NCBI GenBank assembly: GCA_963740355.1
Contig: CAVUDW010000002.1
Coordinates: 1,280,001-1,344,000, forward strand
Reading direction: 5' to 3'
Origin: an uncultured Gemmatimonadaceae bacterium
GTDB lineage: Bacteria; Gemmatimonadota; Gemmatimonadetes; Gemmatimonadales; Gemmatimonadaceae
Length of the DNA: 64,000 nucleotides
Shown here: piece by piece, positions 37,142-63,400 of the stretch
Layout: each line of letters begins with the position of its first letter
How positions within the stretch are numbered: position 1 is the first letter of the stretch
Notes under the pieces: model-generated
What the model was told of the DNA's origin: nothing
Databases searched by the model: none
The model's input: the letters and a program-made list of their open reading frames with translations, nothing else
Translations under genes and position numbers: made by a program

Positions 37142-39577
37142 TCAGCGCGACATCTTCGACAGGACGTATTGCACCGCCAGATCCGTCGTGCTCCACAGCT
37201 GTATGTCCGCCCCGCTGCCATAACGCATGGCGCCCAATTGGCCCCGATCGAAGCCATAGCTCCACAGCTCGGTGTGGAACCCTGACTGCTCCACCGCGGT
37301 GCGCACCTTCTCCAGAGAACCGCGCAGCTCGGCCATGTAGGCGCTCTCGGTCGCCATACCAGGCTGGCGCGCGCGCTCGATACGATTGGCGACGCCCAGC
37401 AGGAAGAGGTTCGCTTCACGACCCCACACCACGCGCGGTCCATGATAGGGATCCTTCACGAAGCTGTCCCACACCGCTGGCGACGCGTACGCATCGTTCG
37501 CGACCACGGGCCCGATGCGGTCCACGAACAACCCTGCGGGATAGGGGCGCGCAAAGAGGCGAACGTCGCGCAGTGTGTTCGCGACTTCCTCGGCCGTCGA
37601 CGCATCGGTGCGCCCTTCGCCGTCGCCGAGGAAGAGCTGCGTTGCCGGGTCGGTATTGGCGACAGCGATCGGGCGGCGATCTCCATCCAGCGCAACTGCG
37701 AGGAACACCAGCGAATCGGAGACAGCCGCCGCCGTTGTGGATCGTGATTGCCACCACCCGCGCTCAGCCTCGGGCATCGCTGCCAGGCGCGCCTGTGTGG
37801 CTGCGCGCACCTGCGGGCCGCTCAGTGACACCAGGAAATGCCGTGAAGCGCCACGCCAGGTCGTGATGGCGCGCTGCAGCAACGCGGGATCGCGCGCATA
37901 GCGGGCCAGCGGCGTGTTGCCGGTGGTGGCTGAGGCGGTCGCGATGCCAAGCGTGCGCATCGCGGCCAGGATCTGTCCGGTGGCCTCCAGTGCGTGCGGC
38001 ACCCAGATCGTATTGATATCCATCGCGAATCGACCACCGGCGTATCCGGCGCCGCTGTCCCGCCAGCTCGCGGTGGCCCAGCCGTCGGGCTCACGGGGCG
38101 CGAATGCGATCAGGTTGGCTGAGTTGGGGTCGGCTGCGTACGGGGCCGTCAACTGCGCGACCAGCGCCAGCTCGCGCAGCAGCCGCGCGGCGCGCGTGCC
38201 ACCGCCATCGCGCGTGTCGAGCAGAAAGGCGCGCTTGGCGGCGGCGGGTACGGCCGGATCCGTGATCCACCGCGCGACGACGATCGGGAGTTGGTACTCA
38301 TCGTCGATCATGTGGTAGTTCTCTCGCACCACGCGCAGGTCGCGCAGCACCGTGTCGGCGCGGGCCATCAGCGAGTCTGCAGCGCGGCGGTCGCCTGCCT
38401 TTGCGCGCTCGTGGTACTGGTCGATCAGTGCGGCGTATTGCCCCGCGGACTCACGCACGGCCTGATCGCCCAGTGCTTCCTCATGACTGACATCGCCGCG
38501 CGGGGCCAGCTTGCGCAGCGCCGTGGCGATCACCGCCTCGAGCGTCTCATGTTGCCAGATGGGACGCATCATCAGCGCCGTCATCAGCATGTCGCGCCCG
38601 AAGTACGTGGCGTAGGTCGGCAACCCGGCCATCAGCTTCTCGCGTGAGACGAGCAGCTCCACACCGGTGACCTGGCGTTCCATGCGACGCGCACGAATTG
38701 CGAGGGTGTCATCCGGCGCCACCGCGGCGCCGCGTGCACGCGTGGTTTCGAGAAAGGCGAGGAAGTCGGGCGTGAAGATCTGCTGTCGAGTGAGTGGCGT
38801 GAGCGCTCGCGCCGTCGTCGTGAGGTGGACGATGAACGTGATGGATTCGCCCGCGCGTGCCGAGAGTGACAGCGAATCGCCGGCTACGGTCGCTGCGACC
38901 AGGCCAGCATCGCCACGCACTTCGAGCGTGAGCGTGTCACGTGCGTCGAGCGTGACCTGCTGCACGCGCGCGATCCACGCGGCACCGTCGGTGCGCAGGG
39001 CAACTCGCGGATACATGCGCGCCTTCAGCGCCTCGACCGAGTTCGCGTTGAGGCGACGGAGGTGGCGCGCACGATCAGCCGCGGGAAGCTGGCCGAGCGC
39101 CGCGATCAGCCGATCGACTTCAGGGATGAGGTACGGGCCAGCGCTGAAGGCGTCCTTGGCGCGCTCATTGTATTGAAAGTCCCGCTCCACCCGCATCGAG
39201 CCGAGCAGGAACCAGCCGAGGGTGAGCGTGTTGGAGCGCGCGGTGAGCTGGTATTCGAAGTGTCGGGTGCGGCCGGTGCTGCTGACGGTCGCATCGGTGA
39301 CTCCCCAGATGAGTGGTGCGACCTGGCCGCTCGCGTTGCGGGCCGTAAAGCCTATGCTCGCGTTGTCGGCGTCCGCGAGCAGGTGCACCACGCGGGCGCT
39401 GCGTTGATCGATGTAGACCTGCAGGGTGTTGCGTGCCGCATCGCGGTAGAAGCGGGTCTGATAGCCGCGGTAGGCTACGGTGTCGTCGAGGCCAGCGTCG
39501 GGGAACGACAGCACCGGTTTGGCCGGTGTCGGCGGTACCGCGAGCTGCAGCAGCAGCGCGAGGGCGAGGGCGGTCAT
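37142..39577 (-). CDS. Secreted (alpha/alpha)6 glycoside hydrolase, amylo-alpha-1,6-glucosidase/debranching-like
   Basis: Signal-like N-terminus MTALALALLLQLA. Motifs LMAGLPTYATYFGRD, VSHEE, MIDDEY, SWRDS, YHG.VVW, TELWS, QLWS. Start moved to ATG 39577. Confidence 0.72.
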   Translation of the reverse strand: MTALALALLLQLAVPPTPAKPVLSFPDAGLDDTVAYRGYQTRFYRDAARNTLQVYIDQRSARVVHLLADADNASIGFTARNASGQVAPLIWGVTDATVSSTGRTRHFEYQLTARSNTLTLGWFLLGSMRVERDFQYNERAKDAFSAGPYLIPEVDRLIAALGQLPAADRARHLRRLNANSVEALKARMYPRVALRTDGAAWIARVQQVTLDARDTLTLEVRGDAGLVAATVAGDSLSLSARAGESITFIVHLTTTARALTPLTRQQIFTPDFLAFLETTRARGAAVAPDDTLAIRARRMERQVTGVELLVSREKLMAGLPTYATYFGRDMLMTALMMRPIWQHETLEAVIATALRKLAPRGDVSHEEALGDQAVRESAGQYAALIDQYHERAKAGDRRAADSLMARADTVLRDLRVVRENYHMIDDEYQLPIVVARWITDPAVPAAAKRAFLLDTRDGGGTRAARLLRELALVAQLTAPYAADPNSANLIAFAPREPDGWATASWRDSGAGYAGGRFAMDINTIWVPHALEATGQILAAMRTLGIATASATTGNTPLARYARDPALLQRAITTWRGASRHFLVSLSGPQVRAATQARLAAMPEAERGWWQSRSTTAAAVSDSLVFLAVALDGDRRPIAVANTDPATQLFLGDGEGRTDASTAEEVANTLRDVRLFARPYPAGLFVDRIGPVVANDAYASPAVWDSFVKDPYHGPRVVWGREANLFLLGVANRIERARQPGMATESAYMAELRGSLEKVRTAVEQSGFHTELWSYGFDRGQLGAMRYGSGADIQLWSTTDLAVQYVLSKMSR

Positions 39578-40364
39578 GCCCACACTCGGCGGGATCGGGC
39601 GTCGCTCGGGGCGTGATGCATGGGTCGGGTTCCGCAGGGGGGGTGAAGGACGAAAAACGCGCGCAGCGGTCGCGCGGAATGCTACCCGTCGGTGCGTATT
39701 CGGGCGATGGTTGTGCGGGGCCTGCACGAAATTCTTCCGAAACTCGGCGGTGGTTGCCGATATCGGTGCACGTTTGTGCACACATGCAAGCGAGTGTGCA
39801 GATAACGGAAAGTCAGGTGTGGAGCCGGTTACTCGGTGCGGCGTGCGGTGTTTGGTACCGCATCTTGACATGTCTCGTACCGACGGCGAGCATAGGCCCC
39901 AACAATCCCCCGGCAAAAAGGCGTCCAACCGGTTTTTCTGGTGCGACGCCGCTTGCCATGTCAGTTCCTCACGCCTGAGGTGTGCACTCTCGAGACGTGT
40001 TCAGTAGTGACGCGCCGTCGTGCAGGGCGTCCCCGCGCACAGGGTGCAGCGATAGGCTGCGCCTGCGGGGTGAGTGTGCGACGACCGGGTGCAAGGATCT
40101 GGCCAGTGCGACATGTGTCGCGGCGCGGATCCGACCAATCGGCAAGAGTGCATGAATTCAGCGACGCCCGGAGCGCCGCTTTGGGTGCACTAGGCACCGA
40201 TTGAAGCGACGAGCTGGGCGAGTGATGGAAATACGATGGAATCCGGTTGTGAATTGGTGTGGTCCGCAGTTGCAGGTGCTGTCTCGACGTTCGGTCTCCC
40301 GACCTCCCCGTCTGGAGCGAGCCCGTTTGACAAAACCCTCCGCATGATCCAGGAGAGCAGACGA

Positions 40365-43300
40365 ATGAAGGTGATCAGAGGTCTGATGGCCGCAGCAGTT
40401 GGCGGTCTCCTTATGGCACATCCACTGCAGGCACAGGGTGCCCGTGGTGCGATTTCCGGTCGAGTCGTGGACTCGACCAGCCAACTCCCGATGCAAAGCG
40501 TGACCGTCACGATTGAGGGCACCCAGCGCGGCGCCATCACGCGTGTCGACGGCGGCTTTACCCTGGCTGACTTGCCGGCTGGCACCGCCCGCCTGCGCGT
40601 CACTCGTATCGGTTACACCCCGCAGGTGAAGGATGTTTCGGTGGTGCCCGGCCAGACGGCCACCGTGCGTTTCACGATGCAGGCTGTGGCCGCGAACCTC
40701 GGCGCTGTCGTCGTGACGGGCTACGGCTCGCAGCGCAAGGAAGCCGTCACGGGCTCCGTGGCGACGATCAACGCTGACGAAGCGAACGTCGGTGTCGTGT
40801 CCAACCCGACGCAGCTGCTCGCCGCTCGCGCACCGGGCGTCAACGTCACCCTGAACAGCGGTGAGCCGGGTGCCGGCGCACAGATCCGCATCCGTGGTGG
40901 CACATCGATCAGCGCCAGCAATGATCCGCTCTACGTCATTGACGGTGTGCCGCTCCAGAACAACGAGTCGGAAGCCCGCGGTTACGGCATCGGCGGTTCA
41001 CCGGCCCTCGGCCGCAACCCGCTCAACGCCATCAACCCGTCGGACATCGCCTCGGTGACGGTCCTCAAGGACGCCGCTGCGACCGCCATTTACGGCAGCC
41101 GCGGTGCAAACGGCGTGGTGCTCATCGAGACGAAGAAGGGTCGTCCGGGCGCCGCCACGATGGAATACGAGACGTACGCCGCCTTCGGTCAGGCCGCCAA
41201 CTCGCTCAACTTCCTGACCGGTTCGGAATACCGCAGCTTCATTCAGGACCAGATCACGAAGGGCACGTTGCCGGCGTCGCGCCTCGCGTCGCAGGGCACA
41301 GCGAACACGGATTGGGAGAACGAAACCCGCCGCACCTCGCTGACCCAGAATCACAACCTGTCATTCGCTGGTGGTAACCAGTCGACCACGTTCCGCGCCT
41401 CGCTGAACTTCGCCGACCAGCAGGGCATCGTCGTCTCGAACGGCTTCAAGCGTCTCCAGGCCCGCCTCAACGGCAGCCACGAAGCGCTCAACGGCCGCCT
41501 CCGCATTGGACTCAACCTGAGCTCCTCGCGCATCGAGAACGACTACCTCCCGTTTGAAAACACGGGTGGTTTCGAAGGTGGTGTGTTCCAGAACGTCGCC
41601 GTCTTCAACCCGACGCGCCCGGTCTACGTGACGGATCCCGTCACGCAGCAGCAGCGCTTCTACGAAATCGGCACTGGCCGTCAGTCGGTCCGTAACCCGG
41701 TCGCGCTGGCCTTCCAGACGCTGGACGAAGGCCAGACGATGCGCACATTGGCCAACGTCACCTCGTCGTTCTCGATCTTCCCGAGCCTCATCGCACAGCT
41801 GAACGTTGGTTCTGACCGCTCGAACGGTCAGCGCAACGTCTACCTGCCGAAGGATGGCGCGGTCGGTTCCGAGTTCGGTGGCCTGGCGCAGCAGTCACAG
41901 CGCGCCCTGTCCAACCAGACGTTGCAGACGTTGCTCACCTGGTCGCCGACGGTTGGCCATGAAGCCGACTTCGACATCGTCGGTGGCTACGAGTACACCG
42001 ATTTCGACAACACGGACTTCTCGGCCCAGAGCCAAGGCTTCACGACGGACGCCTTCACGTTCAACAACCTTGGCGCCGGCGCACGTCCGCAGATCCCGCA
42101 GTCCTACCAGGAGCAGAGCCGCCTGGTGTCGTTCTTCACCCGCGCCAACGTCGGGTACAAGAACAAGTACTTCCTGACCGGCGTGCTGCGTCGCGACGGT
42201 TCGTCGCGCTTCGGTACGGCCAACAAGTGGGCCGTCTTCCCGGCACTCTCCGGTTCATGGCTCATCTCTGACGAGTCGTTCGCCAAGGGCCTGCCGTTCT
42301 CACAGCTCAAGCTCCGCGCCGGCTACGGCCTCCAGGGCAACCAGGCTGTGGCACCGTATGCATCGCTCCCGTCGCTCGCACCGGACGGCGGCGCACGCTA
42401 CGTGTTCGGCAACACCACGTACACGGGCATCGTGCCGAACGTGAATGCGAACCCCGACCTCAAGTGGGAGCAGTCGGCGCAGTCGAACATCGCCTTCGAC
42501 TACGGCTTCATGGACGGCAAGTTCAGCGGCTCGCTCGAGTACTACAACAAGAAGACCACGGACCTGCTCCTCACGGTTCCGATCTCGCAGACGGGTTCGG
42601 CCTTCGTCTCGACCCAGCTCCAGAACATCGGCTCCGTGTCGAACAAGGGTCTCGAGTTCTCGATGGACGCTCGCATGTATGAGCGCGCCGGTCGCGGCCT
42701 CAACCTGACCGCCGGTCTCGTCTTCTCGGTCGAGCGCAACAAGGTCCTCGACCTTGGCCCGGCCAGCTTCATCGAAACTGGCGGCGTCAGCGGCCAGGGC
42801 CAGACGGGTGTGAATTCACAGCGCATCATCCCCGGCCAGCCGATCGGCACCTTCTACGGCTTCGAGTTCGCGGGTTTCAACACCACCGGCCAGCAGCTGT
42901 TCAACACCTACACGGTGGTGAAGGATGCGGACGGCAACATCACGAGCCGCACCAAGAGCGGCACGTCGATCGCTCCGGGCTCGGATGACAAGGTCATCAT
43001 CGGCAATGCGAACCCGAACTTCAGCCTTGGCCTCCGCAGCAATGCGACCTGGCACGGCTTCGACGCCAGCTGGCTGTGGCGCGCAGAGCAGGGCCGCGAT
43101 GTCTTCAACAACACGGACCTGGTCTACGGCACCAAGGCGAACGTCACGCAGGACAAGAACTTCCTGCGCTCGGCTCTTTCCTCACCGGAAGGCCTGACCG
43201 AGCCGTCGCAGTACTCGTCGCGCTATGTGGAGAACGGTTCTTTCGTCCGCCTCCAGAACGTGACGATTGGTTACTCGTTCAAGCTCCCCGCTGGCCAGAA

Positions 43301-43466: not shown

Positions 43467-43532
43467 AGCAGGACAACGGTTCCGCTCTGATTTTTGCTTG
43501 ACTTCCTACCTGTTTCATTGAGGCGAATGCGA

Positions 43533-45143: not shown

Positions 45144-45186
45144 CAGGGCCTGCACCGGTACACCGGTGCAGGCCCTGTTGTTTATT
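45144..45186 (+). terminator. Intra-operon intrinsic terminator/attenuator after susD
   Basis: CAGGGCCTGCACCGG-TACA-CCGGTGCAGGCCCTG followed by TTGTTTATT. Confidence 0.85.
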
Positions 45187-54911: not shown

Positions 54912-55559
54912 TCAGCCCCGCAGCGAGATCTCGTAGTCCTTGTCGAGCAGGATGTCCGCGACGTCACCTTGTGGCGCGATCAGGCGATGCTCGATGTCGA
55001 GCACCTGGTCGACGAACGGATCCATGATGTCGCGGTTGCGCGCCTTGCGGCGGCCCTCGGTGTCCTTCCATGTGGCTTGCAGGAAGACGGCGATGTCCGA
55101 CGCGTCGAGCAGGATGGCGTACGTGCCTTCGACCACCAGCACATCGATGTTGGTGAAGTCCAGTGTCTGCGTGTCGAATCGATTCTCGGGATAGTTCACC
55201 ACTGGCGCCGAGACCACCGCGCCGGCGCGGAAGGCACGAATGTGCTCGCGGATCAGGTCCATCTGGACTTCCTGCGGGCCCACGCTGCCAAGGTCTGTGA
55301 GGCGGTGCTCGTGGTTCGTGCGTGGTGGGCGCACGAAGTAGTTGTCCTGATGGATGATCGCCGAGCGGATCCCCGCGGCATTCATCACCGTCGCGAGGTC
55401 GATCGCGGTGACAGACTTTCCGCTCCCCGATTCTCCGGCCACGGCAATCACTGTCCGCGTCTCGCGGGGCAGCCCGAAATCGCTGTTGAGCAGCGCCAGC
55501 AGCTGTTCGGCGCGCTCCTGATACGCTGAAGCGGGGCGTGATCGATTGACGTCACTCAT
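54912..55559 (-). CDS. Uridine-kinase/phosphoribulokinase-like P-loop kinase
   Basis: VIAVAGESGSGKS, IHQDNYF, VLVVEGTY, R..RNRD. Confidence 0.82.
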   Translation of the reverse strand: MSDVNRSRPASAYQERAEQLLALLNSDFGLPRETRTVIAVAGESGSGKSVTAIDLATVMNAAGIRSAIIHQDNYFVRPPRTNHEHRLTDLGSVGPQEVQMDLIREHIRAFRAGAVVSAPVVNYPENRFDTQTLDFTNIDVLVVEGTYAILLDASDIAVFLQATWKDTEGRRKARNRDIMDPFVDQVLDIEHRLIAPQGDVADILLDKDYEISLRG

Positions 55560-55569
55560 GCGCGATCAC

Positions 55570-56940: not shown

Positions 56941-58299
56941 ATGTCGATACCGACCGCACCAGCGCGAGCCCGACTCACGTTTGGCCAGATCGTGAACATG
57001 AACATCGGGTTCTTCGGAATCCAGTACAGCTTCGGGCTGCAGCAAGGCAACATGAGCCCGATTTATCGCTATCTCGGCGCCGATGAAGCGAGCCTGCCGC
57101 TCCTCTGGCTGGCGGGCCCGATGACGGGATTGCTGGTGCAACCGATCATCGGCGCGATGAGCGACAAAACGCTCAGCCCGCGCGGACGCCGGACGCCCTA
57201 CTTCCTGATCGGCGCGGTGCTCTGCAGCCTGGCGCTGTTTGCAATGCCGTTCAGTGCCGCCCTCTGGATGGCAGCCGGCCTGCTCTGGGTGCTCGATGCC
57301 GCCAACAACATCACGATGGAGCCGTACCGCGCCTTCGTCAGTGACCGCCTCGATCCGAGCCAGCACTCGATCGGCTTCCTGACGCAGAGCGCATTCACCG
57401 GGCTTGGCCAGACGCTCTCCTACCTCACGCCGTCCATCCTCGTCGTCCTCGGCATGAACAGCGACACGGTCAACGGTCGCGGGATTCCCTACGTCACGAT
57501 GGGAGCCTTCCTCATCGGGGCGATCTTCTCGATCAGTTCCATTCTCTGGACCGTGCGTACCACACCGGAGTTGCCGCTCAGTGCCGCCGAGATTGCGCGT
57601 ATCAAGGCCCTGCCACGCGGATTCGGCGCTGCCATCAGCGAAGTGGTCGAGGCCATGAAGGACATGCCGGCTACCATGAAGCAGCTGGCCGTGATGAAGC
57701 TCTTCCAGTGGTACGCCATGTTCTGCTACTGGCAATACATCGTCCTCTCGCTCGCGGTCACGCTCTTCAACACACGCGACGCGAATTCACACGGCTTTCG
57801 CGAGGCCGGCCTGGTGAACGGCCAGATCGGCGGCTTCTACAACTTCATGGCCTTCGTTGGTGCGTTCGCGATGGTGCCGTTCACCAAGCGCTTCGGCCCC
57901 AAGATCATGCATGCCTTCTGCCTCACGCTGGCTGGATTCGCGATGATCTCGATCCCGATGATCACCGACCGTGCGCTGCTGTTCATTCCCATGATCGGGG
58001 TCGGGCTGGCCTGGGCCAGCATCATGGGGAATCCGTACGTCATGCTGGCAGGGAGCATTCCGCCGGAACGGGTCGGCGTCTACATGGGTATCTTCAACAT
58101 GTTCATCGTGATTCCCATGATGATCCAGATCTTTACGCTGCCGCTCTATTACAACTCGCTGCTCGGCGGCAATCCAGCCAACGTGATCCGCCTCGCCGGC
58201 GCACTGCTGCTCTGCGCGGCCGTGGCGGTGATGTTCGTGAAGACGGTGAAGCGCGGTGCACTGGACGACGTCGTGCTTCCAATGACGGGTGGACATTGA
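56941..58299 (+). CDS. MFS sugar transporter (maltose/sucrose GPH/SLC45-like)
   Basis: GFFGIQYSFGLQ, LAGPMTGLLVQPIIGAMSD, GRRTPY, MEPYRA, GVYMGIFNMFIVIP; about 12 TM segments. Confidence 0.92.
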   Translation: MSIPTAPARARLTFGQIVNMNIGFFGIQYSFGLQQGNMSPIYRYLGADEASLPLLWLAGPMTGLLVQPIIGAMSDKTLSPRGRRTPYFLIGAVLCSLALFAMPFSAALWMAAGLLWVLDAANNITMEPYRAFVSDRLDPSQHSIGFLTQSAFTGLGQTLSYLTPSILVVLGMNSDTVNGRGIPYVTMGAFLIGAIFSISSILWTVRTTPELPLSAAEIARIKALPRGFGAAISEVVEAMKDMPATMKQLAVMKLFQWYAMFCYWQYIVLSLAVTLFNTRDANSHGFREAGLVNGQIGGFYNFMAFVGAFAMVPFTKRFGPKIMHAFCLTLAGFAMISIPMITDRALLFIPMIGVGLAWASIMGNPYVMLAGSIPPERVGVYMGIFNMFIVIPMMIQIFTLPLYYNSLLGGNPANVIRLAGALLLCAAVAVMFVKTVKRGALDDVVLPMTGGH

Positions 58300-59927
58300 A
58301 TACGCGCCTCGGGGTAGTCATCATGGGTCTTGCAAGTGCGCTGGTCCTTCCCGCCTGCAAGACCGTGACACAGACGACATTCATCGTCGCCAAGAGTCCG
58401 GTCCCGGTGCTCGGCTATGACCCAGCGCGCGATCTCGGCCCGCTGTTTCACGACGTGCAGATGGCCCGCCTCTTCGCCGACTCGAAGACCTTCGTCGATG
58501 CTCGCCCGCTGGAGGCGCCCGCCGCCCTCGCCACGCGGTACCTGGCCGAGAAGAGTGTCGCTGGCTTCGACCTCAAGACCTTCGTCACGCGCTGGTTCAC
58601 ACAGCCGATGCCCGCCGCCACCGTGCCGGGCAGCGCCTCGACGACCGGCATGGAGCAGCACATCCGTGACCTCTGGCCGCTCCTGACTCGCGCAGCCGAT
58701 TCGACCGATGCCCGCTCCTCGCTGCTCCCGCTCCCCAAGCCGTACGTAGTGCCTGGCGGTCGCTTCCGCGAGGTCTATTACTGGGATTCGTACTTCACGA
58801 TGCTGGGCCTGGTGGAGAGCAAGCGCACCGACCTCGTCGCGAGCATGCTCGACAACTTCGCGCACCTCATTCGGACGGTCGGTCACATCCCGAATGGCAA
58901 CCGCACGTACTATCTGAGTCGCAGCCAGCCGCCCTACTTCTCGGCCATGGTCGGCCTGTACGCCACTGCGACCGACACCGCGTCCGCGATGCCGTACCTG
59001 GATGCGATGGAAACGGAGTATGCCTTCTGGATGGATGGCGCCGAGAAGCTCACGCCAGGCACGGCGAACCGCCGCGTGGTGAAGATGCGTGACGGCGCCT
59101 TGCTCAATCGGTACTGGGATGATCGCCCCGAGCCGCGCCCGGAGTCGTACCGCGAAGACTACGAACTCGGTATCTCGCTGCCGGAAGCGAAGCGTGAAGC
59201 GCTCTACCGGAATATTCGCGCCGCAGCCGAGAGTGGCTGGGACTTCTCCAGCCGCTGGATGCGCGATACGACGGATCTGCGGACGCTGGAGACCACCGAT
59301 CTCGCGCCGATCGATCTCAACAGCCTGATGTACCATGCGGAACGCACCATCGCCGCGTTGCATCGCTATCGGAAGGCGGCCGGTGATTCCGCCGCTGCGG
59401 TGAAGTTCGAGGCAGCGGCCGAAGCGCGGAAGGCCGCGCTCCTGGCTGCCGCGTGGGATGTGAAGAGCGGCTTCTTTTACGATGTGCGTTGGCGCAATGG
59501 CGAACGGGTCACCGATCGCCCGACACTCGCTGCCGCCGCGCCGCTGTACTTCGGCCTCGCCACCGCCGATCAGGCACGCGGTGTCACGGCACGACTCGAG
59601 CGCGACTTCATGCGGCCCGGTGGCTTCGTCACGACGACGATCCGCTCAGGACAGCAGTGGGATGCACCCAACGGCTGGCCGCCACTGCAGTGGGTCACGA
59701 TGGAAGGAGTGCGCCGGTATGGTCGTGCCGACATCGCCGACATGGCGCGTGACCGATGGTTGACACTCAACCGTCGCACCTATGCAGCCGTCGGCAAGAT
59801 GACGGAGAAGTACGATGTGCTCGACCTCACGCGACCGGCCGGTGGTGGTGAGTACCCGACGCAGGATGGCTTCGGCTGGACGAATGGTGTCGCGCTGGCG
59901 CTGGCGGCGATGGGCGCCGTGCGATGA
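58296..59927 (+). CDS. treA: Alpha,alpha-trehalase, GH37 (probable lipoprotein)
   Basis: DSKTFVD, PGGRFREVYYWDSY, PNGNRTYYLSRSQPP, PRPESY, AAESGWDFSSRW, QWDAPNGWPPLQ, GFGWTNG. TTG start overlaps the MFS stop; lipobox LPAC. Confidence 0.93.
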   Translation: MNTRLGVVIMGLASALVLPACKTVTQTTFIVAKSPVPVLGYDPARDLGPLFHDVQMARLFADSKTFVDARPLEAPAALATRYLAEKSVAGFDLKTFVTRWFTQPMPAATVPGSASTTGMEQHIRDLWPLLTRAADSTDARSSLLPLPKPYVVPGGRFREVYYWDSYFTMLGLVESKRTDLVASMLDNFAHLIRTVGHIPNGNRTYYLSRSQPPYFSAMVGLYATATDTASAMPYLDAMETEYAFWMDGAEKLTPGTANRRVVKMRDGALLNRYWDDRPEPRPESYREDYELGISLPEAKREALYRNIRAAAESGWDFSSRWMRDTTDLRTLETTDLAPIDLNSLMYHAERTIAALHRYRKAAGDSAAAVKFEAAAEARKAALLAAAWDVKSGFFYDVRWRNGERVTDRPTLAAAAPLYFGLATADQARGVTARLERDFMRPGGFVTTTIRSGQQWDAPNGWPPLQWVTMEGVRRYGRADIADMARDRWLTLNRRTYAAVGKMTEKYDVLDLTRPAGGGEYPTQDGFGWTNGVALALAAMGAVR

Positions 59928-61066
59928 AGTCGCTGTTCTGGCTTGGCGTGCTTGGGCTGGCGGTGCTGGAGATTGCGCTCGTGTATTTCATCATGCCCAT
60001 GCCTGGCAGTCAGCGCATGCGCAGCATCGAGCTGGCGTACACGCTCTACAGCTGGCGCTGGGCCGGGCGGGCACTGTTCGGTGTGATGATCGCGGCGGGA
60101 CTGCTGCCAGCATGGCGAAGCGTTGGGCGCACACGATACCTCGTCCCCGTCGCCCTGCTGGCCGTCGGCGCAATTGCGTACGCCTTCAATTTCCAGATGG
60201 CGGCCGATCACATGTTCCTGCAGCCACGCACACTGCGCATGGCGTCGGCATCCGTGAACACGGTCGCGGCTGATCGTCTCGTCGTCGGCTTCGAACTGAA
60301 TGGGCAGGCGCGCGCGTATCCGCTGCAATTCATCGGGTATCACCATCAGGTGCGCGACACGGTGGCGGGTGAGGAGATCCTCGTCAGCTACTGCACGGTG
60401 TGTCGCACCGGTCGGATTTTTCGGCCGACGGTGAACGGGCAACTGGAGACATTCCGGTTGGTCGGCATGGACCACTTCAACGCGATGTTCGAGGATGCCA
60501 CCACCAGGAGTTGGTGGCGCCAGGCCAATGGTGAAGCCGTGATCGGGCCGCTCAAGGGCACGGCGATGCCGGAGCTGCCCAGCGTCCAGGTGTCGCTCGG
60601 ACAGTGGATGAAGCTGCACCCGCAGAGCCTCGTGATGCAGGCCGATCCGGCGTTCACCAGTGAGTACGCCAAGGACTATGCGTACGAAAAGGGCACGAAG
60701 ACCGGCGGTCTCACAGGCACCGACACCGTGTCGTGGAATGACAAGGCGTGGGTGGTCGGTGTGGCGATGAAGGGAGCTGCCAAGGCGTACGACTGGAAGC
60801 AGCTGCGCCGTGAGCGAGTGATCAACGACACGGTCGGTGGCGTGCCGATCGTGATCGCGCTTGGGCCGGACAGTGTGAGCTTCTTCGCCTTCCAGCGCCC
60901 CGACACTGCCACGCGATTCGCGCTGCGTGGCGATTCGCTGGTGGCACCGGTGGGAAGCTTCGCGCTCAACGGGCGCGGTGCCTCCGGCGCCTTGACTGCC
61001 ATCAACGCCAGCCAGGAATTCTGGCACAGCTGGCGCACGTTCCAGCCGGCGACCACGCGTTACTAG
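59924..61066 (+). CDS. DUF3179 family protein with N-terminal TM helices and a CxxC motif
   Basis: ARAYPL..I.YH..V.D, VSYCTVCRTG, D..T.S.W.Q..G.A..GPLKG, FWHSW..F.P.T. ATGA overlap with the trehalase. Confidence 0.82.
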   Translation: MKSLFWLGVLGLAVLEIALVYFIMPMPGSQRMRSIELAYTLYSWRWAGRALFGVMIAAGLLPAWRSVGRTRYLVPVALLAVGAIAYAFNFQMAADHMFLQPRTLRMASASVNTVAADRLVVGFELNGQARAYPLQFIGYHHQVRDTVAGEEILVSYCTVCRTGRIFRPTVNGQLETFRLVGMDHFNAMFEDATTRSWWRQANGEAVIGPLKGTAMPELPSVQVSLGQWMKLHPQSLVMQADPAFTSEYAKDYAYEKGTKTGGLTGTDTVSWNDKAWVVGVAMKGAAKAYDWKQLRRERVINDTVGGVPIVIALGPDSVSFFAFQRPDTATRFALRGDSLVAPVGSFALNGRGASGALTAINASQEFWHSWRTFQPATTRY

Positions 61067-61069
61067 TCA

Positions 61070-63400
61070 ATGCCACGCGCATACTTTTCGCGTGCCCCGC
61101 GACTGATCGCGATCGTCGCTGCAGCAGTGGGCATCGCGGCGTGTGGCGAGACGGCGTCAACGCCGAAGGGCGTCGCGATCCCGAGTGGCACGCAGCGCAT
61201 GGCCGATACGCTGGCCGCGTTGTATGCGAGGTCGCTGCTCCATCCGGAAACGAATCCATTCCTCAATCGCGCGCGCGTTGACGCGATCGCAAAGGAACTG
61301 GCGGGCCAGACGGGCGACGGTGCGATGGACGCCCGCTTTCGGCTCGCCGAGGAACAGCTGAAGACCGGTCGGACACAGGATGCCATCGACGGGCTCGAAT
61401 CGCTGATCCGCGATGCGAAGATCTCGTGGGATAGCATCCTTCCGCACCAGAAGCCGTTCTTCGACCTGCTGTCGGTGGCCTACATGCGGCTTGGTGAGCA
61501 GCAGAACTGTCTCGCCAATCCTGCGGCCAACATCTGCATCCTCCCACTCGCCGGTGGCGCGCGGCATACGAAGCAGGTGGGCGCTCGCGCGGCAATCGAG
61601 CGGTATACGAAGATCCTGCGACAGTATCCCGATGATCGTGGATCACAGTGGCTGCTGAACCTCGCGTACCTGCAGATCGGCCATTACCCCGACAGCGTGC
61701 CCGCGAAGTATCTCATCAGCAAGCTCGTTCCCAAACGCGGGCCGAACGACTTTCCGGAGTTCCACAACATCGCCGGGCCGGTTGGCCTGGCGGTGACCGG
61801 GCTCGCAGGCGGCGTGGACATCGACGACTTCAACGGTGATGGCCTGCTGGATGTCTTCACGACCGCGTGGGGCCTCAACGACCCAGTGCATGTCTTTCTC
61901 GCGGACGGTCGCGGCGGATTCCTCGATCACACCGCAGCGGCTGGGGTGCAGGGGATCGTCGGTGGGCTCAACTCGACACACGCCGATTACGACAACGACG
62001 GTGACGTGGACATCCTCATCATGCGTGGCGCGTGGATGCGGGAGAATGGGCCGTTTCCGCTGTCGCTGCTGCGCAATCGTGGGGATGGCTCGTTCGACGA
62101 CGTGACCTTCGATTCCGGTCTCGGTTCGTTCGGCCCGACGAACACGGCCAGCTGGGCAGACTTCAATCTCGATGGGTATCTCGATCTCTTCGTCGGCTAC
62201 GAGTCGTACTCGAAGATCAACGGTGGGCCATCACATCGCTCGAAGCTCTTCCTCAACAACCGGAACGGCACCTTCACCGAGGTCTCGGCGAAGGTCGGCA
62301 TCGATGTCGATGATTTCGTGAAGGGTGCCACGTGGGGCGACGTCAATGACGACGGCCTGCCTGACCTCTACCTGACGGTCATCTACGGCCGCAACAAGCT
62401 GTTCATCAACAAGGGTGGGGCGTCGATCGACGCGTGGCGGTTCGAGGAGCAGGGGGAGAAGGCCGGAGTGCAGCTGCCGATTGCGGCCTTCCCGACCTGG
62501 TTCTTCGACTTCGACAATGATGGACATCCGGACCTGTTCGTCCCCAGTTACGACGTGAACGCCGCGATGCACGAGTTCGTGGCGCGCGAGTACCTCGGGC
62601 TGCCGCTCTCGGTGAAGATCGGCGGCGTCGATGTCACCTTCGAGGATGCGAAGCTCTATCGCAACAAGGGTGATGGCACCTTCGAGGATGCGACGACCCG
62701 AATGGGGCTCGATCGCAAGGTCATCTACGCGATGGGCAGCAATTTCGGCGACATCGACAACGATGGCTGGCTCGACTTCTACATCGGCACCGGCAATCCC
62801 GACCTGCGGTCGGTGATCCCGAACCGCATGTTCCGCAATGTCGATGGCAAGCGCTTCGAGGAGATCACGCTCTCGGGCGGGTTCGGCCATCTGCAGAAAG
62901 GGCATGCGGTGGCCTTTGCCGACCTCGATCGCGATGGCGACGAGGATGTCTTCGAGGTGATCGGCGGGGCGTACGATGGCGATCTGGCGACGACCGTACT
63001 GTTCGAGAATCCCGGGTGGCCGAAGACGCAGTGGCTCAACCTGAAGCTCGAAGGGACCACCGCCAATCGGTCGGCGATTGGGGCTCGGGTCGAGATCGTC
63101 GTGACTGATGGCACGGGCACTGCGCGCAGCATCCATCGCACGGTCGGCACTGGCGGATCGTTCGGCGCGGGACCGCTGGAACTGCACGTCGGCCTGGGAG
63201 CGGCGACGAGTGTGAAGGAGGTGCGGATTCAGTGGCCCGACAAGGCACACTCACGCGCCTCGTTCACGAACCTGACGGCGAATCGGTACTACCGGATCGT
63301 GCAGGGCGCTCAGCCGACGACACTGACTCGACCGGCGGTCCCCTTCCGCACCACACCGTCGGGCACCGGGCCAATGATGACCATGCCGATGCCGAAGTAG
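61070..63400 (+). CDS. CRTAC1-like lipoprotein (helical N-terminus + FG-GAP repeats + ASPIC/UnbV)
   Basis: Lipobox IAAC, helical region with NC...IC, DFNGDG/DYDNDG repeats, NRSAIGARV, LHVGLG, IQWP. Confidence 0.88.
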   Translation: MPRAYFSRAPRLIAIVAAAVGIAACGETASTPKGVAIPSGTQRMADTLAALYARSLLHPETNPFLNRARVDAIAKELAGQTGDGAMDARFRLAEEQLKTGRTQDAIDGLESLIRDAKISWDSILPHQKPFFDLLSVAYMRLGEQQNCLANPAANICILPLAGGARHTKQVGARAAIERYTKILRQYPDDRGSQWLLNLAYLQIGHYPDSVPAKYLISKLVPKRGPNDFPEFHNIAGPVGLAVTGLAGGVDIDDFNGDGLLDVFTTAWGLNDPVHVFLADGRGGFLDHTAAAGVQGIVGGLNSTHADYDNDGDVDILIMRGAWMRENGPFPLSLLRNRGDGSFDDVTFDSGLGSFGPTNTASWADFNLDGYLDLFVGYESYSKINGGPSHRSKLFLNNRNGTFTEVSAKVGIDVDDFVKGATWGDVNDDGLPDLYLTVIYGRNKLFINKGGASIDAWRFEEQGEKAGVQLPIAAFPTWFFDFDNDGHPDLFVPSYDVNAAMHEFVAREYLGLPLSVKIGGVDVTFEDAKLYRNKGDGTFEDATTRMGLDRKVIYAMGSNFGDIDNDGWLDFYIGTGNPDLRSVIPNRMFRNVDGKRFEEITLSGGFGHLQKGHAVAFADLDRDGDEDVFEVIGGAYDGDLATTVLFENPGWPKTQWLNLKLEGTTANRSAIGARVEIVVTDGTGTARSIHRTVGTGGSFGAGPLELHVGLGAATSVKEVRIQWPDKAHSRASFTNLTANRYYRIVQGAQPTTLTRPAVPFRTTPSGTGPMMTMPMPK

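What the first reader, a model, noticed from the sequence alone, without database searches (positions are those of the whole stretch)
37142..63400. SusC/SusD alpha-glucan/trehalose locus carrying an unexplained haloperoxidase + triple ASPIC/UnbV + DUF3179 module
Seen: a divergent secreted debranching-like GH, then susC-susD-[FG-GAP/UnbV]-[V-haloperoxidase/PAP2]-[FG-GAP/UnbV]-GH13. An opposite-strand kinase/GH100-like pair follows, then MFS-trehalase-DUF3179-[FG-GAP/UnbV]. Junctions overlap or nearly touch (48635-48638, 53440-53443, 58296-58299, 59924-59927). Known: SusC/SusD pairs define polysaccharide utilisation loci, best studied in Bacteroidota; the characterised starch system uses SusE/F/G, not FG-GAP proteins or a peroxidase. 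Inference: about half of the locus is non-CAZyme machinery coupled to glucan uptake in a high-GC, apparently non-Bacteroidota host. It may be an uncharacterised surface complex that combines Ca-dependent propeller binding proteins with oxidative or phosphatase chemistry. I recall similar VCBS + haloperoxidase neighbourhoods in annotations, so the novelty is function rather than existence.
Basis: partly seen in the sequence, partly recalled or inferred. Interest (0 to 1): 0.85.

Follow-up and report, generated by a model that had tools for sequence, protein, structure and literature searches.

The report
Alpha-glucoside uptake locus with iodoperoxidase
This is a Gemmatimonadota copy of a widespread but never-studied sugar-uptake gene cluster in which an outer-membrane importer is teamed with giant calcium-binding propeller proteins and a vanadium enzyme that oxidises iodide, and nobody yet knows why a sugar importer needs that chemistry.

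Summary
The host is a Gemmatimonadota bacterium.

The "haloperoxidase" is a lipoprotein that closely matches the crystallised Zobellia vanadium iodoperoxidase (PDB 4CIT, E 4.9e-141). Its vanadate-site residues are invariant in 79-80 of 80 relatives.

The core SusC-SusD-propeller-propeller-haloperoxidase recurs in Gemmatimonadota, Bacteroidota and Rhodothermota. The two propellers are old, separately kept paralogs. Haloperoxidase and UnbV propeller are also fused into single predicted proteins in 18 of 35 longer homologs. A second, diverged haloperoxidase-propeller pair sits by another TonB-dependent receptor in this genome.

Alpha-glucoside genes accompany the core in two phyla.

[quoted passage not shown] Fig. 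S2J). This scan has also met it before on other DNA.

So this is a new member, in another phylum, of a catalogued but biochemically unstudied kind. What the propellers and the halide chemistry do is still open.

In this assembly the first propeller gene carries a one-base frameshift.

The parts
37142..39577 (-). Secreted GDE-like (amylo-alpha-1,6-glucosidase-fold) glycoside hydrolase candidate, divergent from susC. The ORF runs to 39928, but the likely start is the ATG at 39577, before a signal-like MTALALALLLQLA.
   Evidence: Translation. No Pfam, NCBIfam or PDB sequence hit. 905 homologs at E<=1e-3. AF2 model pLDDT 91. Foldseek top hit 7VMA, E 8.3e-10. VIA-align Z 27.8, 504 residues aligned, rmsd 4.5, next family Z about 24. 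Kept next to susC in other Gemmatimonadota loci.
40236..43466 (+). SusC/RagA-type TonB-dependent outer-membrane transporter.
   Evidence: TIGR04056, 712.6 bits (cut-off 368), and the SusC signature TIGR04057. Plug, barrel and CarboxypepD_reg domains.
43494..45110 (+). SusD-family lipoprotein (lid of SusC).
   Evidence: PF07980 2.7e-30 and PF14322 8.7e-20. Lipobox LMVGC. It is the only strong SusD of the genome; PF07980 gives 4 matches and the other three are at 26-31 bits.
45144..45188 (+). 15-bp GC-rich hairpin followed by UGUUGUUUAUU, between susD and the first propeller gene. Probable terminator or attenuator.
   Evidence: Sequence. Fold -35.3 kcal/mol, z -6.9, 0 of 200 shuffles as stable.
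45245..48638 (+). CRTAC1-like double-propeller lipoprotein FG1 (FG-GAP repeats + UnbV/ASPIC). Interrupted by a one-base frameshift near 48008-48022 in this assembly.
   Evidence: Pfam for both pieces. Lipobox LSAGC. Frame change located with intact orthologues of L002 and L003. Belongs to the paralog clade that follows susD in all three phyla.
48635..50044 (+). Lipoprotein vanadium-dependent haloperoxidase, close relative of Zobellia Zg-VIPO1.
   Evidence: PDB 4CIT/4USZ, E 4.9e-141 over residues 46-456. Lipobox LAGC. K341, R348, S375, G376, H377, R427 and H433 invariant in 79-80 of 80 relatives. Sources name relatives 'vanadium-dependent haloperoxidase [Gemmatimonadaceae]'.
50054..53443 (+). 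CRTAC1-like double-propeller lipoprotein FG2, 47% identical to FG1.
   Evidence: FG-GAP_3 5.7e-86 and UnbV_ASPIC 4.6e-21. PDB 9ETN (CRTAC1) 5.4e-18. Identity to FG1 and two-module build. Invariant residues are mostly Asp/Asn/Gly. Belongs to the paralog clade that sits next to the haloperoxidase gene.
53440..54879 (+). GH13 alpha-amylase-family lipoprotein. Its start overlaps the FG2 stop.
   Evidence: PF00128 6.3e-32. Best NCBIfam hit alpha-amylase MalA, 1.2e-53, below cut-off. Lipobox ITAC. Also present in G102.
54912..55559 (-). P-loop kinase of the PRK/uridine-kinase family. Proposed sugar-acid or sugar kinase partner of the next gene (inference).
   Evidence: PF00485 1.3e-9. Uridine kinase models at 5e-15, far below cut-offs. 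The pair with the GH100-like gene is kept in L006, L008, L011, L014, L088 and L089.
55570..56748 (-). Cytoplasmic GH100/GH63-like (alpha/alpha)6 hydrolase. Candidate invertase or glucosylglycerate-type hydrolase.
   Evidence: PF12899 3.7e-9 and MGH1-like 2.6e-4. Glucosylglycerate hydrolase model 3.5e-5, below cut-off.
56941..58299 (+). MFS transporter of the GPH/sucrose-symporter type.
   Evidence: PF07690 5e-19. TIGR01301 3.8e-21, below cut-off.
58296..59927 (+). Periplasmic-type alpha,alpha-trehalase (GH37) lipoprotein.
   Evidence: PF01204 6.8e-139. TreA subfamily NF009774, 587.8 bits (cut-off 560). Lipobox LPAC.
59924..61066 (+). DUF3179 membrane protein: N-terminal helices plus a Rieske-like beta domain with invariant HH...CxxC.
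   Evidence: PF11376 1.5e-48. Invariant GYHHQV and YCTVCRTGR. Some relatives are named '(seleno)protein'. AF2 pLDDT 86. Residues 126-228 match Rieske ferredoxins at Z 6-8. Adjacent to trehalase also in G102. Present in 7 of 47 related loci with at least 8 kb downstream.
61070..63400 (+). Third, single-module CRTAC1-like propeller lipoprotein FG3, 26% identical to FG1 and FG2.
   Evidence: FG-GAP_3 1e-36 and UnbV_ASPIC 1.6e-13. Lipobox IAAC. Identities. A 47%-identical relative follows the haloperoxidase gene in a Rhodothermales locus (L034).

Best explanation
The region is a Gemmatimonadota member of a widespread SusC/SusD locus type that has been catalogued but never studied. In North Sea flavobacteria the type was labelled a predicted 'trehalose (alpha-1,1-glucan) PUL'.

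Shown:

- The outer part encodes a SusC/SusD importer, two anciently separated CRTAC1-like double-propeller lipoproteins, and a lipoprotein that closely matches the Zobellia vanadium iodoperoxidase and has an intact vanadate site.
- The rest encodes alpha-glucoside and alpha-glucan enzymes and inner-membrane transporters.
- Haloperoxidase and UnbV propeller form a tight evolutionary unit. They are adjacent in two diverged subfamilies, fused in many predicted proteins, and each time sit beside a TonB-dependent transporter.

Inferred mechanism:

1. The propellers and the haloperoxidase are working parts of the SusCD surface machine, in the positions where ordinary loci place surface glycan-binding proteins and a surface enzyme.
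2. The propellers act as calcium-dependent binding or scaffold proteins.
3. The haloperoxidase, held on or beside them, turns H2O2 plus iodide (or another halide) into hypohalite at the uptake site.
4. The imported cargo is small alpha-glucosides and alpha-glucan fragments.
5. Lipoprotein GH13 and trehalase split the cargo in the periplasm. The MFS carrier takes it up, and the GH100/GH63-like hydrolase with its kinase finishes the job.

What the hypohalite step achieves is the open link. It could release or condition the cargo, or let the cell cope with peroxide-rich phototroph sources. DUF3179, a membrane-anchored Rieske-like CxxC protein, may be a redox helper.
For: Family calls.

Haloperoxidase identity: PDB 4CIT/4USZ, E 4.9e-141. 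Catalytic set invariant in 79-80 of 80 relatives.

Lipoprotein signals on SusD, FG1, the haloperoxidase, FG2, GH13, trehalase and FG3. By a lipobox pattern, signals also occur on 63 of 77 haloperoxidase and 68 of 88 propeller ORFs in related loci.

Synteny over the 80 best of 603 related places:
- A propeller gene lies directly upstream in 42 of 65 loci with at least 1.5 kb upstream.
- Two or more propeller genes occur in 40 of 51 loci with at least 9.5 kb upstream.
- SusD occurs in 20 of those 51. This is an undercount where three propeller genes fill the flank.

Gemmatimonadota genomes G102, G135 and G061 keep SusC-SusD-FG1-VHPO-FG2 plus GH13 or SSF, the kinase, the GH100-like gene, MFS and trehalase.

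Phylum census: 13 of 151 genomes have the haloperoxidase. In the 10 other genomes tested for UnbV, 10 of 11 haloperoxidase genes have an UnbV domain within about 2.5 kb on the same strand. The exception lies at a contig end.

The second, 44%-identical pair is followed by a TonB-dependent receptor in 4 of 5 loci fetched.

Two old propeller clades are kept in all three phyla.

Fusions: 18 of 35 longer homologs join FG-GAP + UnbV + haloperoxidase. Three join the haloperoxidase to trehalase, GH97 or GH20.

Alpha-glucoside neighbours elsewhere:
- Trehalase, MFS, GlpF/K/D-like genes, DUF3179 and TreC-like GH13 in L056.
- A GH65 kojibiose-hydrolase equivalog directly upstream of the haloperoxidase gene in L037. 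GH65 also in L023, L029 and L044.
- GH97 in L029.

Print: Suppl. Fig. [quoted passage not shown] The main text reports SusC/D-like proteins of that cluster in bloom metaproteomes.

Zobellia: ZGAL_1259-1261 (ASPIC/UnbV) precede ZGAL_1262 (haloperoxidase). ZGAL_2086-2087 precede ZGAL_2088.
Against: - No experiment links any of these proteins to sugar uptake.
- Trehalose and similar disaccharides need no oxidative pre-treatment, so the proposed chemistry has no obvious use for the proposed cargo.
- In marine Flavobacteriaceae loci, Zobellia included, the propeller-haloperoxidase core often has no GH neighbour, and sometimes no SusCD within reach.
- About 11 of 51 loci with long upstream flanks show no propeller gene at all.
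- In Zobellia, ZGAL_1259-1262 and ZGAL_2086-2088 were not induced by the algal polysaccharides tested, relative to glucose. The only significant changes were decreases of ZGAL_1261.
- The propellers show no conserved catalytic or redox-metal signature. There is one invariant His and no invariant Cys beyond the lipobox. 'Binding or scaffold' is therefore a default, not a finding.
- No LacI or other dedicated regulator was found in the stretches I scanned.
- The first propeller gene is frameshifted in this assembly.
- The 80 loci are the closest relatives of this haloperoxidase and are kin, so the counts overstate independence.
Confidence: 0.45

Rival explanations
1. Iodine or halide handling system. 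The haloperoxidase oxidises iodide with H2O2. The calcium-binding propellers and a TonB-dependent or sodium/solute transporter capture or take up the product. The sugar genes matter only because they yield glucose for peroxide production, or they are mere neighbours.
For: - The enzyme closely matches an iodide-oxidising enzyme.
- The text of PMC5064120 reports that iodine uptake by Arenibacter C-21 needs glucose, oxygen and calcium, or an H2O2-generating system, and that its genome holds at least five homologs of the Zobellia enzyme.
- Arenibacter loci L045 and L052 carry SusD-propeller-propeller-haloperoxidase plus an SSF transporter.
- SSF transporters occur in 14 of 47 loci with at least 8 kb downstream, and as ZGAL_1258 in Zobellia.
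- PMC9296495 states that Z. galactanivorans can accumulate iodine.
Against: - Hypoiodous acid and iodine are small and membrane-permeant, so they need neither a TonB-dependent importer nor a SusD lid (established knowledge).
- No bacterial need for iodine is known.
- Many carriers are from soil, freshwater or sediment, where iodide is scarce.
- The SSF proteins match only generic solute:sodium symporter models.
- The halide preference of this protein cannot be read from its sequence.
Confidence: 0.15
2. Surface peroxide defence or antagonism. The propellers act as integrin-like adhesins to phototrophs or other cells. The haloperoxidase removes the H2O2 these cells emit, or turns it into a biocidal hypohalite, while the bacterium feeds on released compatible solutes.
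For: - FG-GAP propellers are integrin-type adhesion folds (family knowledge), and FG2 matches CRTAC1.
- The neighbours target typical compatible solutes of phototrophs: trehalose, sucrose or glucosylglycerate-like compounds, and glucosylglycerol or kojibiose.
- PMC9296495 discusses a Zobellia iodoperoxidase (vIPO3) among responses to algal defences.
Against: - General defence does not explain why both haloperoxidase-propeller subfamilies and the third PAP2-like gene each sit by a TonB-dependent transporter.
- It does not explain the operon-like coupling behind susD either.
- No adhesion data exist.
Confidence: 0.15
3. The core and the alpha-glucoside genes are separate units that merely lie side by side. 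SusCD-propeller-haloperoxidase would then import an unrelated, unknown substrate.
For: - Many marine Flavobacteriaceae loci have the core without GH genes.
- The downstream genes vary a great deal between lineages.
- A hairpin and an opposite-strand gene pair split the region into at least three transcription units.
Against: - GH13 is translationally coupled to FG2, and FG3 follows trehalase-DUF3179 within 3 bases.
- Alpha-glucoside genes of different families (GH13, GH37, GH65, GH97, GH100-like) recur next to the haloperoxidase gene in differing gene orders in two phyla.
- Predicted haloperoxidase-trehalase and haloperoxidase-GH97 fusions exist.
- The same combination is drawn as one PUL in PMC6298971, Suppl. 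Fig. S2J.
Confidence: 0.15
4. The PAP2-fold protein works here as a phosphatase rather than a haloperoxidase. It would remove phosphate from sugar phosphates or phosphorylated glucans before uptake.
For: - Pfam sees only PAP2 above its cut-off.
- Acid phosphatases and vanadium haloperoxidases share the active-site architecture, and apo-haloperoxidases show phosphatase activity (recalled knowledge, not from a call).
- Starch and glycogen carry phosphate esters (recalled).
Against: - The match to an enzyme solved and named as a vanadium-dependent haloperoxidase is very strong.
- The residue after the second His motif is not the Asp of the phosphatase motif as I recall it.
- The protein also matches the VCPO second helical-bundle model weakly, and that model is in the precomputed domain lists.
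Confidence: 0.07

Closest known systems
Predicted 'trehalose (alpha-1,1-glucan) PUL', PULs 103 and 116 of Flavobacteriaceae bacterium MAR_2010_105 / MAR_2010_119 (Kappelmann et al., ISME J 2018/2019, PMC6298971, Suppl. Fig. S2J). I saw passages of the main text and supplements 1, 4 and 7.
   Same: Same parts list: SusC, SusD, several ASPIC/UnbV proteins, a PAP2-superfamily protein, GH13, MFS and GH37 trehalase.
   Different: - Different phylum.
- No LacI seen here.
- The haloperoxidase gene lies between the two propeller genes instead of after them.
- Extra genes here: GDE-like GH, GH100-like hydrolase plus kinase, DUF3179, a third single-module propeller, and further GH13/GH77 beyond the window.
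- That paper assigns the substrate from GH37 and GH13 alone, and the passages and supplement rows I searched say nothing about the ASPIC and PAP2 genes.
Zg-VIPO1, vanadium-dependent iodoperoxidase of Zobellia galactanivorans (PDB 4CIT/4USZ; Fournier et al. 2014, AEM). The paper is not held, so I cite only the PDB entry name and reference lists.
   Same: E 4.9e-141 over nearly the whole mature protein. All vanadate-site residues are shared. Its gene ZGAL_1262 also follows three ASPIC/UnbV genes.
   Different: - By numbering I recall from that paper, two second-shell positions differ here: Tyr263 is Phe and Cys320 is Ile.
- The halide preference of this protein is unknown.
- The Zobellia locus has an SSF transporter and no SusCD directly upstream.
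Starch utilisation system (Sus) of Bacteroides thetaiotaomicron and flavobacterial alpha-glucan PULs.
   Same: A SusC/SusD pair with GH13 enzymes and an inner-membrane sugar carrier. Lipoprotein genes follow susD, where surface binding proteins and a surface enzyme normally lie.
   Different: - No SusE/F-type proteins.
- Their place is taken by 1,100-residue CRTAC1-like double propellers and a haloperoxidase.
- A trehalase and GH100/GH63-like enzymes are present.
Vertebrate CRTAC1 (cartilage acidic protein 1, PDB 9ETN).
   Same: FG-GAP propeller followed by an UnbV/ASPIC domain.
   Different: The bacterial proteins are lipoproteins with two propeller modules in tandem, encoded behind outer-membrane importers. 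CRTAC1 gives no lead to their biochemical function.

Membership tests
Vanadium-dependent haloperoxidase (bacterial iodoperoxidase type) | Clear sequence relationship to a solved, characterised member | tested here: met
   PDB 4CIT/4USZ 'vanadium-dependent haloperoxidase', E 4.9e-141, query residues 46-456.
Vanadium-dependent haloperoxidase (bacterial iodoperoxidase type) | Vanadate-binding set Lys, Arg, Ser-Gly-His, Arg, His (residue roles recalled) | tested here: met
   K341, R348, S375, G376, H377, R427 and H433 are present, aligned to the same residues of 4CIT, and invariant in 79-80 of 80 relatives.
Vanadium-dependent haloperoxidase (bacterial iodoperoxidase type) | Vanadate-dependent halide oxidation, and which halide | not testable with these tools
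   Needs purified protein. Sequence alone does not give the halide preference.
SusC/SusD polysaccharide utilisation locus | Adjacent SusC-family transporter and SusD-family lipoprotein | tested here: met
   TIGR04056 at 712.6 bits and PF07980 at 2.7e-30, with the two genes 27 bases apart.
SusC/SusD polysaccharide utilisation locus | Linked carbohydrate-active enzymes | tested here: met
   GH13, GH37, a GH100/GH63-like gene and a GDE-fold protein in the region. GH13 and GH77 lie just beyond it.
SusC/SusD polysaccharide utilisation locus | Substrate-induced co-expression under a dedicated regulator | not testable with these tools
   No RNA data were available, and no regulator was seen in the ORFs scanned.
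Catalogued 'trehalose PUL' type (Kappelmann 2018, Suppl. Fig. S2J) | Gene content SusC, SusD, two or more ASPIC, PAP2, GH13, MFS, GH37 | tested here: met
   All are present, matching the figure text.
Catalogued 'trehalose PUL' type (Kappelmann 2018, Suppl. Fig. S2J) | LacI-family regulator at the head of the locus | tested here: not met
   No LacI family among the ORFs scanned: window 13.8-64 kb and the 15 kb beyond. Small ORFs were not all scanned.
CRTAC1 / ASPIC-UnbV family | FG-GAP propeller plus UnbV_ASPIC domain | tested here: met
   PF13517, PF01839 and PF07593 above cut-off in all three proteins. FG2 matches 9ETN at 5.4e-18.
Bacteroides starch Sus (SusE/F/G accessory set) | SusE/SusF-type surface starch-binding lipoproteins | tested here: not met
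   No SusE/F family among the Pfam hits of any gene of the region.
Amylo-alpha-1,6-glucosidase / GDE_C-type hydrolases (for 37142-39577) | Family profile match and catalytic residues | tested here: inconclusive
   No Pfam hit even at E<=10. The fold match to 7VMA has Z 27.8 over 504 residues. Catalytic residues were not examined.
Rieske iron-sulfur proteins (for DUF3179) | Rieske fold with CxH...CxxH cluster ligands | tested here: inconclusive
   Residues 126-228 align to many Rieske ferredoxins at Z 6-8. The invariant motif is HH...CxxC, not the classical one. Foldseek gave nothing at E<=0.001.

The most novel reading that the evidence does not exclude
The CRTAC1-like propellers and the vanadium iodoperoxidase form a halide-peroxide 'front end' of TonB-dependent uptake machines. 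Hypohalite made at the cell surface would process, release or tag the cargo before import. That would be the first halogen-based, non-hydrolytic surface enzyme of a Sus-like system. It would be conserved across at least three phyla, with a membrane-anchored Rieske-like CxxC protein (DUF3179) as a redox partner in some lineages.
Probability: 0.2. Interest if true: 0.85.

Novelty: new member of a known kind. Interest (0 to 1): 0.5.

Why it matters
SusC/SusD loci are the main route by which Bacteroidota and their allies take up complex carbon. SusC/D-like proteins assigned to this very cluster type were detected in North Sea bloom metaproteomes (PMC6298971). Yet more than half of the coding length of the conserved core is proteins of unknown role.

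The locus gives a proven iodide-oxidising enzyme a fixed genetic partner and a transporter context. It therefore links two fields that have not met: halogen and peroxide chemistry, and glycan foraging. It also offers clean, testable gene sets in culturable relatives (Zobellia, Gramella, Arenibacter, Flavobacterium).

The Gemmatimonadota copy shows that the module is not a marine flavobacterial speciality. It crosses phyla with both propeller paralogs intact.

Tried and rejected
- **Complex prediction.** FG2 residues 46-625 with haloperoxidase residues 52-462 scored 0.02, verdict 'no answer'. This is no evidence either way. Only one of several possible propeller modules was tried.
- **Expression.** No RNA holder was listed for the stretch. 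There were three DNA holders, with shares 0.25, 0.09 and 0.08.
- **Frameshift check.** Laying their contigs gave no piece bridging 48008-48022. Whether the frameshift is real or an assembly error stays open.
- **Literature.** The following full-text searches found no paper tying UnbV/ASPIC or FG-GAP proteins to SusD or to a haloperoxidase:
  - haloperoxidase + ASPIC
  - vanadium / haloperoxidase / polysaccharide utilization / FG-GAP
  - UnbV + SusD
  - ASPIC + TonB-dependent + Bacteroidetes
  - SusD + FG-GAP
  - haloperoxidase / SusC / VCBS / TonB-dependent ('susc' also matched 'susceptibility')

  The link appears only in supplementary tables and figures.
- **Papers not held.** Fournier 2014 and Amachi 2007 could not be read. 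What they say on gene context or physiology is unseen, except as quoted in PMC5064120.
- **Propellers as peroxide-making metal oxidases.** Rejected as unsupported. Among 24 aligned propellers there is one invariant His and no invariant Cys beyond the lipobox.
- **DUF3179.** No PDB sequence match at E<=0.01; the best was E 0.016. No Foldseek match at E<=0.001.
- **Flavobacteriaceae-specific genes.** The two genes downstream of the haloperoxidase gene have no counterpart in the window.
- **ORF upstream of the second haloperoxidase gene (L082:9858-10619).** It looks like a spurious Arg/His/Gly-rich frame and was dropped.
- **Check for broken TonB-dependent receptor genes near the second module.** Meant as a gauge of assembly quality, it was uninformative.
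- **Rows dropped.** In one search, alignments under 80 residues were dropped and locus L081 onward was left out. In one search, haloperoxidase ORFs with alignments under 380 residues were left out. In one search, only propeller ORFs over 3 kb that did not touch a locus end were used.

Full report
**Observation**

- On the minus strand lies a large secreted protein, 37142-39928. Its likely start is at 39577.
- On the plus strand follow SusC (TIGR04056, 712.6 bits), SusD, FG-GAP/UnbV #1, a PAP2-fold protein, FG-GAP/UnbV #2 and GH13.
- On the minus strand follow a PRK/uridine-kinase-type kinase and a GH100/MGH1-like hydrolase.
- On the plus strand follow an MFS carrier, a GH37 trehalase, DUF3179 and FG-GAP/UnbV #3.

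The four overlapping junctions read ATGA, GTGA, TTGA and ATGA. SusD, both large propellers, the PAP2 protein, GH13, trehalase and the third propeller all begin with lipoprotein signals.

1. The first propeller gene changes frame near 48008-48022. Intact orthologues align in frame 1 up to 48022 and in frame 2 from 48015.
2. A 15-bp hairpin with a U-run follows susD (-35.3 kcal/mol, z -6.9).
3. The locus continues beyond the window. There it holds a second MFS, a second PAP2/haloperoxidase-like gene, a TonB-dependent receptor, GH13, GH77 and aldose epimerase.

Genes to the left of 37142 are unrelated: patatin-Omp85, cupin, a TetR-like protein and others.

**Host**

Named relatives of the PAP2 protein are from Gemmatimonadaceae or Gemmatimonadota. 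The closest loci in the species-genome collection are Gemmatimonadota MAGs. The window lies in a 5.45-Mb assembly of 5 contigs, 94.5% complete.

**The haloperoxidase**

The PAP2-fold protein matches PDB 4CIT/4USZ, the vanadium-dependent haloperoxidase of Zobellia, at E 4.9e-141 over residues 46-456. The residues I recall as the vanadate site are Lys, Arg, Ser-Gly-His, Arg and His. They are K341, R348, S375-G376-H377, R427 and H433 here. They are invariant in 79-80 of the 80 sequences compared.

By the Zobellia numbering as I recall it, two second-shell positions differ here. Tyr263 is Phe, and the family splits 41 Phe to 38 Tyr. Cys320 is Ile, where 65 of 80 have Cys.

I could not read Fournier 2014. 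The label 'iodoperoxidase' therefore rests on the PDB entry, on reference lists and on PMC5064120. The family is very large: 8,000 of 8,000 scored candidates had E<=1e-20.

**The propellers**

FG1 and FG2 are 47% identical. Each has two modules: a propeller with an UnbV domain, then a second propeller. FG3 is a 26%-identical single-module form. FG2 matches CRTAC1 (PDB 9ETN) at 5.4e-18.

In an alignment of 24 such proteins the invariant residues are mainly Asp, Asn and Gly, as in calcium-binding FG-GAP loops. There is one invariant His and no invariant Cys beyond the lipobox. I therefore see no sign of a redox-metal site. I treat the propellers as binding or scaffold proteins by default.

A tree of 85 propeller proteins (FastTree, midpoint root) shows two old clades.

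- Gemmatimonadota FG1 groups with the copy that follows susD in Bacteroidota and Rhodothermota.
- FG2 groups with the copy next to the haloperoxidase gene.

Both paralogs have thus been kept through the spread over three phyla. Gemmatimonadota differ only by a swap of FG2 and the haloperoxidase gene.

**Synteny**

A pattern scan of one genome per species found 605 places, of which 603 encode a relative. The best 80 were fetched. I scored neighbours by blastp against the window's proteins.

- A propeller gene lies directly upstream of the haloperoxidase gene in 42 of 65 loci with at least 1.5 kb upstream.
- One lies directly downstream in 8 of 69 loci with at least 1.5 kb downstream. That is the Gemmatimonadota order.
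- Of 51 loci with at least 9.5 kb upstream, 40 have two or more propeller genes, 15 have three, and 20 show SusD and 20 show SusC.
- The SusC/SusD counts are undercounts, because three propeller genes fill the 10-kb flank.
- About 11 of those 51 show no propeller gene.

The carriers are Gemmatimonadota, many Bacteroidota (Cytophagales, Cyclobacteriaceae, Saprospiraceae, Flavobacteriaceae and others) and Rhodothermales.

Within Gemmatimonadota the gene is patchy. 13 of 151 sampled genomes have a match at E<=1e-30. Genomes G102, G135 and G061 keep SusC-SusD-FG1-haloperoxidase-FG2 with GH13 or an SSF transporter, the kinase, the GH100-like gene, MFS, trehalase and the GDE-like gene.

**The haloperoxidase-propeller pair is the tightest unit**

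This genome has a second haloperoxidase gene, 44% identical. It is followed directly by a 1,243-residue protein with two UnbV domains and then a TonB-dependent receptor.

I tested 10 other Gemmatimonadota genomes for UnbV. In them, 10 of 11 haloperoxidase genes of either subfamily have an UnbV domain within about 2.5 kb on the same strand. The exception is at a contig end. G130 and G041 were not tested. A TonB-dependent receptor follows the second-type pair in 4 of 5 loci fetched. The third PAP2-like gene, just past the window, is also followed by one.

A note from an earlier report of this scan pointed to fusions, and I tested that. Of 35 homologs longer than 821 residues, 18 carry FG-GAP, UnbV and haloperoxidase domains in one predicted protein. 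Ten of these are about 900-955 residues, a build that is not a plain joining of neighbours. Eight are 1,147-1,648 residues. Three others join the haloperoxidase to a trehalase, a GH97 or a GH20. Some of these may be gene-calling read-through, which I could not check at the read level.

In Zobellia galactanivorans, ZGAL_1259-1261 (ASPIC/UnbV) precede ZGAL_1262 (haloperoxidase). ZGAL_2086-2087 precede ZGAL_2088. ZGAL_2250 has no such annotated neighbour (supplementary Table 2 of PMC5613140).

**The sugar side**

- **The secreted protein at 37142-39577.** It has no family or PDB sequence match. It folds with pLDDT 91. Its best structural match is the amylo-alpha-1,6-glucosidase of Thermococcus gammatolerans: Foldseek E 8.3e-10, and VIA-align Z 27.8 over 504 residues at rmsd 4.5. 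GH63 and GH100 enzymes score Z 22-24.
- **The minus-strand pair.** It is a GH100/GH63-like hydrolase with a P-loop kinase. It resembles in make-up the 'digeneaside' units of PMC6298971, which pair a GH63 mannosylglycerate hydrolase with a glycerate kinase. I infer a heteroside or sucrose hydrolase plus kinase, but neither reaches a curated cut-off.
- **Related Bacteroidota loci.** The haloperoxidase gene is followed or preceded by:
  - trehalase, MFS, GlpF-, GlpK- and GlpD/O-like genes, DUF3179 and a TreC-like GH13 (L056);
  - a GH100-like gene with a PfkB kinase and trehalase (L061, a Flavobacterium);
  - a GH65 that passes the kojibiose-hydrolase equivalog cut-off at 1,044 bits (L037), with GH65 also in L023, L029 and L044;
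  - GH97 (L029).
- **Downstream counts.** Among 47 loci with at least 8 kb downstream: SSF 14, FGGY kinase 12, MFS 11, aquaporin-type channel 9, trehalase 7, glycerol-3-phosphate enzyme 7, DUF3179 7, TreC-like GH13 7, GH100-like 4.

The common theme is small alpha-glucosides, plus alpha-glucan enzymes in this genome.

**DUF3179**

DUF3179 has N-terminal membrane helices and the invariant motifs GYHHQV and YCTVCRTGR. NCBI names some relatives '(seleno)protein'. The model (pLDDT 86) has a domain at residues 126-228 that aligns to many Rieske ferredoxins at Z 6-8. That is middling and only a lead, and Foldseek found nothing at E<=0.001.

In G102 it also follows trehalase directly. In G135 and G061 it is missing. 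Eleven contig lengths recur between the homolog lists of the haloperoxidase and of DUF3179. This suggests shared contigs in other Gemmatimonadota MAGs, but it is indirect.

**What is already known**

A second note from this scan led me to Kappelmann et al. (PMC6298971).

- Its supplementary text assigns the substrate from GH37 and GH13 alone.
- Its PUL table also lists a Gramella forsetii locus with two FG-GAP proteins and a vanadium-dependent haloperoxidase family protein, and a Dokdonia 'alpha-glucan' PUL with three ASPIC genes.

So the arrangement and its alpha-glucoside reading are in print by annotation. The roles of the propellers and the haloperoxidase are not. Six full-text searches found no paper that discusses them together. 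The scan itself has reported the same module on other DNA several times.

**Mechanism**

I commit to the reading that propellers and haloperoxidase are working parts of the SusCD surface machine for alpha-glucoside and alpha-glucan cargo (confidence 0.45).

Shown:
- the identities of the proteins;
- the lipoprotein signals;
- the tight haloperoxidase-propeller unit, by adjacency in two subfamilies and by fusions;
- the constant company of a TonB-dependent transporter;
- the recurrent alpha-glucoside neighbours.

Inferred:
- surface location;
- physical association;
- the cargo;
- above all, the purpose of hypohalite formation.

Against it:
- Disaccharides need no oxidative help.
- Marine flavobacterial cores often lack GH neighbours.
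- The Zobellia genes were not induced by the algal polysaccharides tested.

Rivals are an iodine-handling system, surface peroxide defence or antagonism, mere juxtaposition, and a phosphatase role. The iodine rival is supported by the physiology of Arenibacter C-21 as quoted in PMC5064120 and by the SSF neighbours. It is weakened because small iodine species need no TonB-dependent import.

**Verdict**

The locus is a new member, in Gemmatimonadota, of a catalogued but unstudied kind. The interest lies in the unexplained and very well conserved marriage of a proven iodide-oxidising enzyme with giant propellers and TonB-dependent import, which is now ripe for experiment in culturable relatives.

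Noticed in passing
window 48008-48022: One-base frameshift in the first propeller gene. Intact orthologues align in frame 1 up to 48022 and in frame 2 from 48015. It could be an assembly error or a real pseudogene.
   Followed up: partly
window 45144-45188: Perfect 15-bp GC-rich hairpin plus a U-run directly after susD (-35.3 kcal/mol, z -6.9). It suggests partial termination between susCD and the propeller-haloperoxidase-GH13 genes.
   Followed up: partly
L082 (G000:C2:810001-830000), 10623-19999: A second module in the same genome: a 44%-identical haloperoxidase gene, a 1,243-residue protein with two UnbV domains, then a TonB-dependent receptor. The same trio occurs in G102, G133 and G139.
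   Followed up: yes
L081 (G000:C2:1343001-1358000): Just past the window's end lie a second MFS, a third PAP2/haloperoxidase-like gene (32% identical), a TonB-dependent receptor, a cyclomaltodextrinase-like GH13, GH77 and aldose 1-epimerase. The alpha-glucan island is therefore larger than the finding's span.
   Followed up: partly
window 59924-61066; alignment A4: DUF3179 has invariant HH...CxxC motifs and a Rieske-like domain (Z 6-8), preceded by membrane helices. NCBI names some relatives as selenoproteins. This looks like an unstudied membrane redox protein.
   Followed up: partly
proteins P0402, P0408, P0405: Predicted single proteins join the haloperoxidase domain to a trehalase, a GH97 or a GH20 domain (domain order). 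They may be real fusions or read-through of neighbouring genes.
   Followed up: partly
L078:11336-13162 and 17 other Flavobacteriaceae loci each: Two further genes regularly follow the haloperoxidase gene in Flavobacteriaceae. One is a membrane-anchored GyrI-like protein and the other is a roughly 290-residue lipoprotein with no clear family. Neither occurs in the window.
   Followed up: partly
L062:8593-11598: In an Aquirufa locus without propeller genes, a flavin amine oxidase gene sits directly upstream of the haloperoxidase gene and a globin-like gene directly downstream. The oxidase is a possible local peroxide source.
   Followed up: no
L037:7757-9847; L023, L029, L044: A GH65 passing NCBI's kojibiose-hydrolase equivalog cut-off lies directly upstream of the haloperoxidase gene in Cytophagales-type loci. 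Glycerol uptake and catabolism genes lie nearby, which hints at glucosylglycerol or alpha-1,2-glucoside use.
   Followed up: partly
window 34855-37062: A patatin-like phospholipase is fused to an Omp85-type barrel, directly left of the locus.
   Followed up: no
window 13815-16091 and 22137-25484: A PQQ-dependent dehydrogenase with a cytochrome c domain, and a tricorn-type protease. Both seem unrelated to the locus.
   Followed up: no
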